The position numbers were made by a program. A DNA stretch of 15,196 nucleotides from Candidatus Hydrothermales bacterium (GTDB lineage: Bacteria; Hydrothermota; Hydrothermia; Hydrothermales; JAJRUZ01). The stretch's first letter is position 1; each line of letters opens with the position of its first letter. Below, in pieces: positions 12,001 through 15,000 of the stretch. The DNA lies in NCBI GenBank assembly GCA_039630575.1, contig JBCNUW010000030.1:1-15196 (forward strand). Direction: 5' to 3'.

Positions 12001-15000
12001 CTCAAGTAAAATCTTTTGTGCCGAGAGGAGATCAAGACCCTTTAATATAGGAATTTTTACATATTCAATTTTTTTAGTCTTTGCAACCTTCACATATACC
12101 TCGCTCCCTTGATTCACAAAGGAGCCAGCAAGAGGTCTTTGTTCTACTATTGTTCCTTCAGGATATTCTTTTGTTTCTACTTCTCCTTCCAAAACAAGAG
12201 ACAAATTAACTTGAGAGAGAAGTATTTTTGCTTGAGAAGGAAATATCCCCCTTAAATCAGGAACTTCAACATTAGTACTTTTAAGTTTTTCCTTTAAATA
12301 TGTAAATTTTTTTTCCTCTAAAGAAGGTACAACAAAAAAATAAAAAACTAAATTAATACCTATAGCAACAAAAATTGATGTTACAAGTGATATTAAAAAA
12401 GCTGTTCCTCTATCAACCATAACTTATTCTTGATAAAATTATACCCACTATTAAAAGAATTCCAAATGAAAAGTGTAATTTTGCTGTAAAAAGGTCAAGT
12501 AAACCAAACTGAAGATAATTTGGTCTAAAGGCTAGCCTTACATTTCTATAAGCAAGTGGAGCTGTAAATAACACAATGATAGTTTGCCATGGAATAATTT
12601 TTAAAATTATCAAAATAATCGTAAATAGATAAGAGAGGAATACTAAAATTAAGTAGTAATAGGACGACCCTTTAACCCCAAGATATGAAGCAACGGTTTT
12701 ATAACCAGCCTTTATATCCTCAACTAAATCTCTAAAATTGTTACCATGAAGAATTCCAATAACTAAAAACCCAACAGGAAAAGAAATAATAATAGGTAAA
12801 ATTGATATTTCTTGTGTTTGAACATAGTATGAACCAAAAGCAAGTAGTGGTCCAAAGGCAAGAAAAACTGAAAGATCTCCTAATGCTCTATATTTAAGTC
12901 CTATAGGTTTTACTTGATAAAAAACACCAAGGAAAAGTCCAACAATACCTATTATTAAAATCCAAATACCTTTTAGAATTGTAAGAATTAAACCTATGGT
13001 GGATCCTAATAAAAGAAGTATTAAAACAAGAGCTGTTTGTTCTTTAATAGTCAAGAGTTTATCTTGTAACATTCTTGAAGCACCTATAACCAGCCAATCA
13101 TCAACTTTATATTTATAATCCATCAAATCATTTAAGGCATTCACTCCTGCATGGATCAGAAGAACTCCTAAGAGAGTTATAAAAAGAAAAGGAAGACTTA
13201 ACTCTTTTGCAAGAAGAGCACCTAACACACAGGATACAAATGTGGCGGTAAAGGAAAATGGTCTTGTAGCCTTAAAAAATCTCTTCCATTTTGGAATAGG
13301 GGTGTCTAACTGAATAGAAAATTTAAGATCATCCTCTTTTGGAATTATTACCTCTCTTGGTTTAAATGAAGTTCTAAAGTCTGATAAGTATAATTTTGTT
13401 GGTTTTATCTTAATAACAACAAGATCCTTAACCATTTTAACAAAGGGTATAAGCTCTAAATTTTTCTGGAAAAGTAGTATTCTTTCTTCCTCTCTCTCGG
13501 ATGGAGAACCAAGTATTTGAGCTTCACCTTCACCCTGAATGAAAAGGTCTGGTATTCCTCTGTCAATAGTGAAAAAGACCTTGTTATTTTTAATAATGTT
13601 ATTATAGTTTTTAGATTTTTCTATGATAGCAAAGAGGTATAGGCCCTTACTTGCAAAATATACCCTACTTGTCCAGAGGTCATCTCCAGTTGTGGATAGA
13701 GTCATTGTTTTATTTTTTCTATAGATTTCAAAAATTTTTATAATTGTTTCTTTGTTCATAATTTATTATAAAAATTATGAAAAAATTTCTTCAATTATGT
13801 TAAAATTAGCTATGTTAAAGATCTTTTTAATTTTAATTTTTTTACAAATAAAAATAGAAAGACTTTTGAACAGAAATTCAACACCTGAAGAAAGGGTCAA
13901 AACAGCAATTCAGTTTAAAGACAAGGAAATTAAACTTTCATCAAAGATAAAGGCAAATATTAAAACAAGTAAGGGTGAAGTAATTTGTGAGCTTTATCCT
14001 CAGTATGCACCAAAAACAGTAACTAATTTTGTTAAGCTATCCTCTCTTGGATTTTACGATGGTTTAAAATTTCACAGGTATGTTCCTGGTTTTGTAATTC
14101 AAGGTGGAGATCCCTATGGAACAGGTTATGGAAATGCTGGATATACTATACCTCTTGAAACTCATCCCAAAGCAAAACATGTAGAGGGAGCACTGGGAAT
14201 GGCTAGAGCAGCTGATCCAAACTCAGGTTCTTGTCAATTTTATATTACTCTTTCCCAGACTCCTCATTTAGATGGAAACTATACAGTTTTTGGTAAAGTA
14301 ATAAAGGGAATGGATGTTGTAAAGAAGCTCAGGCAGGGTGACATAATTGAAAAAATTGTTATTTTTGAGAGTAAGTGATTTTTTTCTTATTTTTTTAGAA
14401 AATTTTAAAGTAATTTATCCTACATATCTTGGTAATGTTCAGAGTAATTTTTATAGAGTCAATCCTCCAGATAGTTTAAATTTAAAATGGAAAGTTTATT
14501 AAGGTTTTGCAAAGAGTTGAGTAAATGGTGAGATTTTATGGGCAGGGACTGAGTGGACAGGATAGACTCTTTTGACCGAAGAAAACGGAAATAGTTTTTT
14601 ATATATCCCTTCCTTATCAAATTATCTTTTTAAAGTTAGGTTAAAAACTGGAGAAACAGTTTACAAGACAAATTTGATGATGCTCTTAAAATGATTCCTA
14701 CCTTTTGCATTTATGATAAAAAGATTTTTTTGATAGTTGGAACATAAAAGGGCTTTATAAGAGAGTAAGAGATAATGATTTAAAAACTTTACATCTTGTT
14801 TCTCCCTATGATGGGAAATAATTTTTTCTAAGAAGATTCCAAGCACTTTAAGTTTTAGTAAAGATACTGATGCTCTCCGGTAGTTTTGAGAGGGAAAGTA
14901 TATTGGGCTTGTGAGAATGGTTATCTTTATAGAAGTATTATAAATAGAGAGGAAATTGTAAACATTAATTCTATCAAATTTTAATAGTGATTTAGAATCT

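What a model noticed while it worked through the whole genome (the two positions that open the first line are those of the whole stretch)
12413..13759. Respiring menaquinone auxotroph with a split-barrel (PNPOx-like) domain fused to MenA
Despite complex I, SDH and a quinol oxidase, the lineage has no chorismate, Men or futalosine ring pathway, only MenA and a MenG-like gene. Its MenA carries an N-terminal flavin/haem-type split-barrel domain, a fusion shared by hot-spring bacteria of several phyla, plausibly to capture or reduce scavenged naphthoquinone before prenylation.
Evidence so far: MenB over cut-off 0 of 11, MqnC 0 of 11, chorismate synthase 1 of 11 order genomes; MqnA/D 0 of 5. N-domain PNPOx_N E 7e-5; AlphaFold pLDDT 93, Foldseek: UBIAD1 plus PNPOx-like barrels. 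Full-length fusion in 15 of 40 class genomes; 95 homologues, mostly full length, named from WOR-3, Dehalococcoidia, Calescibacterium, Kapabacteria, Kryptobacter, Chlorobi.
(Added by a program. Inside this text positions count along the whole contig: contig position 1 is position 1 of the stretch shown here. "Call 12" and the like, gene names such as g00115 and contig names such as C1 are that model's own, and its searches are not shown. The text may have been shortened before it was handed on; [...] marks where a part breaks off. The agent that wrote the report below was given it as the finding of a first reader that could run no searches.)

Follow-up and report, generated by a model that had tools for sequence, protein, structure and literature searches.

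The report
Split-barrel fused vitamin-K tailing enzyme
A respiring bacterium with no detectable way to build the ring of its vitamin-K-type electron carrier has an unstudied gene joining a small flavoprotein-like domain to the enzyme type that adds the lipid tail, probably to finish scavenged ring precursors; relatives of this gene also occur in microbes that can build the ring themselves.

Summary
The fusion is real: one 448-aa frame, an N-terminal split barrel plus a MenA-like prenyltransferase (model pLDDT 93), both under equal purifying selection. This genome (94.7% complete) has complex I, SDH and cytochrome bd; I found no shikimate, Men, futalosine or UbiD genes. Three corrections. (1) The fusion is no auxotrophy marker: of 51 carriers 37 show neither ring pathway, 12 have futalosine genes and 2 have MenB, with their own pathway prenyltransferase wherever checked. 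(2) The enzyme is not canonical MenA: it lies outside that clade and shares motifs with animal UBIAD1, which needs reduced menadione. (3) The barrel's cofactor is unproven: the recalled flavin-phosphate lysine is missing in 86 of 86 close homologues; F420 synthesis is found in 4 of 51. The barrel-enzyme link is strong: unfused barrels sit beside such genes in 4 of the 9 closest metagenome loci. Best reading: a naphthoquinone-salvage prenyltransferase (about 70%) whose barrel reduces (40%) or only binds (30%) the head group. Not found in the literature searched. The scan noted this fusion before in an archaeon.

The parts
12413..13759 (-). Fusion gene, 448 aa: split barrel + MenA/UBIAD1-like prenyltransferase
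   Evidence: full-length homologues
13340..13759 (-). N-terminal split beta-barrel domain (residues 1-140), PNPOx-like fold, cofactor unknown
   Evidence: model pLDDT 95.3 (34); VIA-align Z 17.0 to 6vna, 16.8 to 3ec6, tied with haem-, flavin- and F420-binding barrels; mean pairwise identity 0.55, dN/dS 0.08-0.13 (92)
13598..13621 (-). Residues 47-54: altered helix-cap segment; Glu47 in 83 of 86, Asn54 in 86 of 86; position 51 is Lys in 3ec6 and 1rfe but in 0 of 86 close homologues
   Evidence: the role of this Lys in flavin phosphate binding is recalled
13295..13339 (-). Variable linker/helix (residues 141-155)
   Evidence: mean pairwise identity 0.31 for residues 139-160 (92); helix in model
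12416..13294 (-). Membrane prenyltransferase domain (residues 156-448)
   Evidence: PF01040 (4); phmmer 96.3 bits to UBIAD1 8djk_B; TM-score 0.82 by target
13100..13141 (-). First Asp-rich motif (N207, N210, D211, D214, D220); R229 follows
   Evidence: N207, D211, D214, D220, R229 in 86 of 86; N210 is Ser in 63 of 86 (92); aligned to UBIAD1
12875..12895 (-). K289-Y290 ... D295 motif shared with UBIAD1
   Evidence: 86 of 86 (92); alignment; pattern absent in 8 of 8 canonical rows
12716..12748 (-). Second Asp-rich motif with His338 (H-x-N-N-x-R-D)
   Evidence: H338 in 85 of 86, N340/N341/R343/D344/D348 in 86 of 86 (92); His present in UBIAD1 (38), absent in 8 of 8 canonical rows
11644..12420 (-). 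PASTA-repeat protein gene overlapping the fusion's stop by 8 nt; probably co-transcribed, probably not part of the function
   Evidence: same neighbour in only 2 of 78 related loci (L001, L052)

Best explanation
A naphthoquinone-salvage enzyme. The membrane domain, a UBIAD1-like sister of MenA, puts a polyprenyl tail on a scavenged head group (DHNA, its oxidised quinone, or menadione), giving the cell menaquinone for complex I, SDH and cytochrome bd without a ring pathway; in futalosine or Men organisms it is an extra salvage route. The cytoplasmic barrel, probably dimerising as such barrels do, holds a flavin and reduces the oxidised head group to the hydroquinone that can be alkylated. Shown: the fusion, fold, intact catalytic motifs, selection, gene content, repeated barrel-enzyme linkage. 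Inferred: the acceptor, salvage (about 0.7 on its own), dimerisation, flavin binding and reduction (0.4 for the whole statement).
For: Only MenA-like gene in G000, which has quinone-dependent complexes and two polyprenyl synthases but no ring pathway. 37 of 51 carriers show neither pathway marker, 28 of these have a haem-copper oxidase. Where a pathway exists it has its own prenyltransferase: MqnP-type over cut-off in 4 of 4 futalosine carriers tested, a MenA beside menB in 2 of 2. Tree: 22 barrel rows and 6 canonical rows are split by a branch of 95/88 (103). UBIAD1 scores: window 96, a Dehalococcoidia fusion 190, three canonical MenA 70-74 bits. UBIAD1 needs reductant and reduced menadione (PMC4398444); M. 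tuberculosis MenA did not take menadione (PMC6461227, 48); DHNA decomposes in media, with oxidation the likely first step (PMC6687433, 127); gut communities prenylate menadione (PMC7928036, 93). Split barrels can reduce quinones, including 3F7E, a profile hit at E 0.003 (PMC8498797, 128). A Mer/luciferase-like reductase is fused to the same enzyme group. Unfused barrels adjoin His-type MenA-like genes in 4 of 40 metagenome loci, all among the 9 closest, in two arrangements. Barrel kin are fused to a riboflavin kinase. Neighbours include polyprenyl synthase plus Nqr-like genes (3 loci) and aroC (1 locus).
Against: Position 51 is never Lys in 86 close homologues and the preceding Thr is Leu/Ile/Val, with a conserved Glu beside it: the usual flavin-phosphate cradle looks altered. 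CofD in only 4 of 51 carriers, so the F420 quinone-reductase precedent does not transfer. Structural matches tie flavin, haem and F420 binders. A cupin, a plain ligand-binding fold, is also fused at the same place. No conserved quinone operon across the 78 loci. UBIAD1 itself could not be placed in the tree, and the window's lead over canonical MenA is modest (96 against 70-74 bits). 63 of 86 homologues have Ser at the position of UBIAD1 N102, where N102S lowers activity. A WOR-3 isolate respires in pure culture on yeast extract plus vitamins (PMC12285271, 46), which would be awkward for strict auxotrophy if it too lacks ring genes; its genome was not examined. Most carriers are incomplete metagenome assemblies.
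Confidence: 0.4

Rival explanations
1. Same salvage prenyltransferase, but in this subfamily the barrel carries no redox cofactor: it binds and hands over the scarce head group, dimerises the enzyme, or senses a ligand.
For: Lys absent in 86 of 86, new invariant set (W29, E47, N54, Q75, E92, D127, R135); cupin fusion at the same place; strong selection needs no catalysis.
Against: More distant fusions keep S-R-K (P0135, P0155, P0156, P0177); reductase-type LLM fusion and riboflavin-kinase fusion point to flavin chemistry; basic residue kept at position 50 in 72 of 86.
Confidence: 0.3
2. The enzyme prenylates something other than a respiratory naphthoquinone (another aromatic acceptor or a haem-linked process, the barrel binding haem), possibly with the Rce1-like membrane protease often encoded next to it.
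For: Present in organisms with a full futalosine pathway, which need no salvage; top barrel matches include haem binders 5bnc, 6m09, HutZ, ChuZ; Rce1-like gene directly downstream in 18 loci (4 fused, 14 unfused); below all MenA cut-offs.
Against: It is the only MenA-like gene in a genome that needs a quinone; nearest solved relative is UBIAD1; no Rce1-like homologue of that type in G000; in the class all 8 bd carriers have MenA-like genes and no ring marker, 11 genomes have none of these.
Confidence: 0.15
3. These organisms are not auxotrophs: an unknown ring pathway or another quinone exists, and the fusion is its last step, with the barrel catalysing a ring redox step.
For: Menaquinone without a recognised pathway is reported for Gloeobacter and many lineages lack known pathways (PMC13386864, 104, 105); pure-culture respiration of a WOR-3 isolate.
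Against: No shikimate pathway, type III polyketide synthase over cut-off or UbiD in G000; no conserved biosynthetic cluster around the gene; coexistence with complete known pathways.
Confidence: 0.1
4. An ordinary DHNA-specific MenA with an incidental passenger domain.
For: MenA-only DHNA salvage is known (L. plantarum, PMC10746273); many unfused relatives work without a barrel.
Against: Barrel as conserved as the enzyme (0.55 against 0.55; dN/dS about 0.1); repeated fusion or loss across the tree; adjacency of unfused barrels; outside the canonical clade.
Confidence: 0.05

Closest known systems
UBIAD1 (animal menadiol prenyltransferase, PDB 8DJK)
   Same: Only PDB sequence hit and top Foldseek hit; shares R-P-x-S-F, K-Y-x-A-L-G-D and I-L-H-x-N-N-x-R-D motifs; works by salvage of a supplied ring and needs the reduced acceptor (PMC4398444).
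   Different: No barrel in UBIAD1; 29% identity; acceptor of the bacterial protein unknown; shared ancestry within the group not tested by tree.
Canonical MenA (TIGR00751; E. coli, menB/menF-linked genes)
   Same: Same fold and Asp-rich motifs; best family-level annotation.
   Different: Below cut-off (92.4 of 102.15), separate branch 95/88 (103), His338 and K-Y motifs absent in 8 of 8 canonical rows, not linked to men genes, extra domain.
MenA-only quinone auxotrophs (L. plantarum DmkA route)
   Same: Respiratory quinone finished from outside DHNA (PMC10746273, passages).
   Different: No fused domain reported in the passages seen; carriers here are mostly oxidase-bearing environmental lineages, some prototrophs.
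Split-barrel flavin/deazaflavin oxidoreductases (GS26 3EC6, Rv2991 1RFE, MSMEG_3380 3F7E, Ddn) and haem binders (HutZ/ChuZ)
   Same: Fold, Z 13-17 (40); weak profile matches E 3e-4 to 3e-3 (24).
   Different: Lys of the helix cap replaced; F420 synthesis mostly absent; fused to a membrane enzyme; no family cut-off reached.
MqnP (futalosine-pathway prenyltransferase, TIGR01475)
   Same: UbiA superfamily, menaquinone context.
   Different: Separate gene over cut-off in 4 of 4 futalosine carriers; no match at 1e-6 in G000 (95).

Membership tests
UbiA-superfamily prenyltransferase | PF01040 over cut-off, helical membrane fold, two Asp-rich motifs | tested here: met
   109.8 bits against 34.2 (4); model and Foldseek; motifs in 86 of 86 (92)
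Canonical MenA | Score over a MenA model cut-off | tested here: not met
   TIGR00751 92.4 of 102.15, all PRK06080 models below; 31 of 51 carrier genomes have some match over cut-off, several of them fusions
Canonical MenA | Groups with menB/menF-linked MenA; Men pathway in the genome | tested here: not met
   branch 95/88 separates them; no Men genes in G000
Canonical MenA | Decarboxylative prenylation of DHNA | not testable with these tools
   needs assay
UBIAD1-like | Closer to UBIAD1 than canonical MenA is; shared His and K-Y motifs | tested here: met
   96 and 190 against 70-74 bits; both motifs in 25 of 34 barrel rows, 0 of 8 canonical
UBIAD1-like | One clade with animal UBIAD1 | tested here: inconclusive
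   no UBIAD1 sequence was available for the tree (none named among 120 listed)
UBIAD1-like | Prenylates menadiol | not testable with these tools
   needs assay
PNPOx-like split barrel | Split beta-barrel fold | tested here: met
   pLDDT 95.3, Z up to 17.0; PF01243 in 47 of 50 at E<=0.1, window domain below cut-off
PNPOx-like flavoprotein | Thr...Ser-x-Lys phosphate cradle (role recalled) | tested here: not met
   Lys in 0 of 86, Thr in 0 of 86 at the aligned positions; kept as S-R-K in four distant fusions
PNPOx-like flavoprotein | Homodimer with cofactor at the interface | not tested
F420-dependent FDOR quinone reductase | Host makes F420 | tested here: not met
   CofD in 4 of 51 carriers, not in G000 (97)
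YhbP family (PRK03467) | Profile match | tested here: inconclusive
   hhalign probability 7.6% to E. coli YhbP; some unfused kin match NF002900 below cut-off
Menaquinone ring auxotroph (G000) | No Men, futalosine or chorismate pathway, but quinone-using complexes | tested here: met
   assembly 94.7% complete in 95 contigs; order-level MenB 0 of 8, MqnA/D 0 of 8

The most novel reading that the evidence does not exclude
A widespread prokaryotic vitamin-K salvage module: UBIAD1-type prenyltransferases coupled, by fusion or adjacency, to interchangeable reductase or binding domains, which re-reduce and re-tail oxidised naphthoquinones (menadione, oxidised DHNA) shed by the community. It would explain how many respiring lineages that seem to lack quinone pathways obtain menaquinone, and give the bacterial counterpart of animal MK-4 synthesis with its reductase attached.
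Probability: 0.3. Interest if true: 0.75.

Novelty: new variant of a known kind. Interest (0 to 1): 0.52.

Why it matters
A 2026 survey finds many bacterial lineages without any known quinone pathway (PMC13386864). This family offers a testable single-gene explanation for the respiring ones, suggests a supplement (naphthoquinone) for culturing WOR-3, Kapabacteria and similar groups, and points to the kind of enzyme that could prenylate menadione in microbial communities. If the barrel only binds, it remains an unstudied accessory domain on a salvage enzyme.

Tried and rejected
Barrel alone against PDB sequences: no hit; profile gave three weak barrel hits. Complex prediction of the barrel dimer with FMN was not available, so dimerisation and ligand pose stay open. 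No RNA holder listed for the locus (107). Promoter/terminator scan: 16 sites against 12.4 +/- 4.0 expected, uninformative. Fusion as a marker of auxotrophy: rejected (14 of 51 with pathway markers). F420 as the general cofactor: rejected. Second UbiA of G000 as quinone enzyme: unlikely, 36.8 bits to ubiA_proteo, beside a serine-palmitoyltransferase-like gene (56). Weak PF02621 hits in five carriers (E 3e-9 to 1e-4) were not counted as futalosine genes; MqnC was absent in the one checked. YhbP membership: inconclusive. Conserved operon: none across 78 loci. Placing UBIAD1 in the tree: not possible. No one-clade (AU) test was run, so repeated fusion and repeated loss are not told apart. No matched control of non-carriers outside the window's phylum was searched. 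Literature searches listed no paper on this fusion (listings only; open-access library).

Full report
Observation. Window 12413-13759 on the minus strand is one open frame of 448 aa. Pfam gives UbiA at 174-404 (E 1.7e-31) and a sub-cut-off PNPOx_N at 9-125. No NCBIfam cut-off is reached; TIGR00751 menA scores 92.4 of 102.15. The AlphaFold model from an 85-row alignment has pLDDT 93.2; Foldseek returns UBIAD1 first, then other UbiA enzymes and split barrels. The barrel alone (pLDDT 95.3) matches flavin-, haem- and F420-binding split barrels at tied Z of 13-17. Of the first 93 of 120 listed homologues, 86 are at least 430 aa. In GTDB, 78 loci were returned (best 80 of 233); 51 cover both domains or the barrel start, with titles naming WOR-3, Spirochaetota, Kapabacteria/Chlorobiota, Kryptonia, Bacteroidota, Acidobacteriota, Chloroflexota and Tectomicrobia. 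The ESM Atlas lists two fusion clusters of 60 and 263 members, one with Thermoplasmatota commonest. The barrel is as conserved as the enzyme: mean identity 0.55 against 0.55, linker 0.31; dN/dS 0.08-0.13 in three of four pairs, the fourth saturated.

The genome. G000 is 94.7% complete. It has NuoA-D and H-L, a second NuoBCD, SDH flavoprotein, iron-sulfur and two small membrane subunits, and CydAB; NuoM/N-, E- and F-like frames were seen by similarity and by eye; NuoG was not checked. There is no haem-copper oxidase. Not found: MenB, MqnA/D, MqnC, AroC, AroB, chorismate-binding enzymes, UbiD, a type III polyketide synthase over cut-off, and tblastn hits to E. coli MenC, D, F, H, I, AroA, AroD. 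The fusion is the only MenA-like gene. The MenG-like gene is divergent (98 of 158 bits). Two polyprenyl synthases are present. In a draw of 121 phylum genomes the barrel fusion is in 13, MenA-like genes in 20, MqnA plus MqnD in 3 (none with the fusion), MenB in 0. This set overlaps the carrier set below.

Does the fusion track auxotrophy? I searched 51 carriers (G000 plus 50 loci; L028, which ends at a contig edge, was dropped). MqnA plus MqnD: 12. MenB over cut-off: 2, one more at 255 bits. AroC: 23. MenG over cut-off: 33. Haem-copper oxidase: 42. CofD: 4. Neither ring marker: 37, of which 27 also lack AroC and 28 have an oxidase. Most are incomplete assemblies and kin are not independent. 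The cleanest cases are G011 and G028 (locus contigs about as long as the genome): oxidase, MenG and three MenA-like genes, with no ring gene found; and G019, titled a complete genome, with the fusion beside aroC and a full futalosine set. Futalosine carriers have their own MqnP-type gene (4 of 4 tested) and both MenB carriers have a MenA beside menB. So the fusion is an extra enzyme in prototrophs and the sole or an added one in auxotrophs, as expected for salvage, but it is not a marker of auxotrophy.

What kind of prenyltransferase? A quick tree of 121 rows (141 representatives, 21 fragments or near-copies dropped, one outgroup added) and a careful tree of 58 chosen rows put barrel fusions outside the canonical men-linked MenAs (95/88 in the careful tree, LG+G4). 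Barrel rows interleave with unfused rows in several supported groups, so the barrel was gained or lost more than once (4 changes in 81, at least 2 forced); direction was not tested. Against UBIAD1 8djk the window domain scores 96 bits, a Dehalococcoidia fusion 190, and three canonical MenAs 74, 72 and 70. His338 and the K-Y motif, both seen in the UBIAD1 alignment, are together in 25 of 34 barrel rows and 0 of 8 canonical rows; His-type motifs also occur in some unfused rows on the canonical side of the tree. UBIAD1 itself could not be put in the tree.

What does the barrel do? For a functional link: equal conservation; repeated occurrence; and unfused barrels with a His-type MenA-like gene directly adjacent in 4 of 40 metagenome loci, all within the 9 that score best against the barrel profile (three similar divergent loci, one convergent; three of the other five have under 250 nt upstream; 0 of 31 distant loci; 121-124). 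For reduction: UBIAD1 needs DTT and reduced menadione (PMC4398444, abstract and passages); M. tuberculosis MenA did not use menadione (PMC6461227, passages); DHNA decomposes in media (PMC6687433, passages); human gut communities turn menadione into menaquinones (PMC7928036, passages); split barrels such as Ddn and MSMEG_3380 reduce quinones, with F420 (PMC8498797, passages); a Mer/luciferase-like domain is fused to the same enzyme group and barrel kin are fused to a riboflavin kinase. Against: in the alignments to 3EC6 and 1RFE the Thr and Lys of the Thr...Ser-x-Lys segment (phosphate-binding role recalled) fall on positions 46 and 51, where none of 86 close homologues has Thr or Lys, and a Glu at 47 is kept in 83; F420 synthesis is rare in carriers; a cupin takes the same place in other proteins. 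Four distant fusions keep S-R-K. The cofactor and the chemistry are therefore open.

Rivals. Cofactor-free binding or regulation (0.3); another acceptor, perhaps with the Rce1-like gene found directly downstream in 18 loci but not in G000 (89, 90) (0.15); an unknown ring pathway (0.1), for which PMC13386864 (passages, parts 2 and 4 of 9, supplement term search) gives a precedent in Gloeobacter, and PMC12285271 (passages, part 2 of 6, supplement term search) shows a WOR-3 isolate respiring in pure culture on yeast extract without quinone data in what I saw; ordinary MenA with a passenger (0.05). PMC6338057 (passages) does not mention menaquinone. PMC10746273 (passages) documents MenA-type salvage of DHNA in a quinone auxotroph.

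Novelty. Salvage by MenA-only organisms and by UBIAD1 is known; the barrel fusion was not found in searches (listings of an open-access library; bioRxiv supplements not seen). The scan noted the same fusion in an archaeon (e1-5631375) and a parallel LLM fusion beside a small protease gene (e1-1535522); these are unchecked notes, and my reading was set down before I saw them. Verdict: new variant of a known kind, interest 0.52.

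Noticed in passing
L014, L016, L023, L037 and 14 unfused loci (L056-L078): A specific Rce1-like (CPBP) membrane protease gene lies directly downstream of the prenyltransferase in 18 loci across phyla; none of this type in G000. Role unknown.
   Followed up: partly
G007, G011, G018, G025, G028: Three MenA-like paralogues per genome (canonical, barrel-fused, a third) with no ring pathway found.
   Followed up: partly
L099, L101, L121, L122, L124-L129: A second MenA-like family of about 336 aa in WOR-3 with a changed second motif (no N-N-x-R-D); in all three same-genus genomes, not in G000; beside cydAB in G041.
   Followed up: partly
L102:3-4911 (G035): TetR, SsuA-type ABC transporter, menG and menA in one run in a genome without MenB or MqnA/D: a candidate naphthoquinone uptake operon; ABC-permease-MenA fusions also exist (P0100, P0111).
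   Followed up: partly
P0104, P0350, P0410: Other domains fused to the same enzyme group: Mer/luciferase-like, cupin, DoxX (67, 89).
   Followed up: partly
window 13130-13132 (-), residue 210: 63 of 86 homologues carry Ser at the position aligned with UBIAD1 N102, the site of the activity-lowering N102S variant.
   Followed up: no
G000 C4, C22, C45, C78: Complex I genes are scattered over four contigs with duplicate NuoBCD and NuoIJKL sets; a multihaem cytochrome/cytochrome b cluster follows on C4.
   Followed up: no
L091:3318-6606 (G000 C7): The genome's second UbiA-family gene sits with a Zn alcohol dehydrogenase and a serine-palmitoyltransferase-like gene; possibly an unusual lipid pathway.
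   Followed up: no
P0230, P0248, L144, L145: Barrel kin fused to a CTP-dependent riboflavin kinase or a cNMP-binding domain, or followed by an FAD/NAD oxidoreductase gene (89, 124).
   Followed up: no
L135:3473-7368: E. coli yhbP, a weakly similar barrel, lies three genes from ubiTUV; similarity is low (hhalign 7.6%), may be chance.
   Followed up: partly
window 1-12420 and 13752-14378: Ordinary neighbours: ComEC-like, ribosomal/ssb cluster (by sequence), aldehyde and 2-hydroxyacid dehydrogenases, DUF1015, DUF4953 zincin, PASTA protein, cyclophilin.
   Followed up: no
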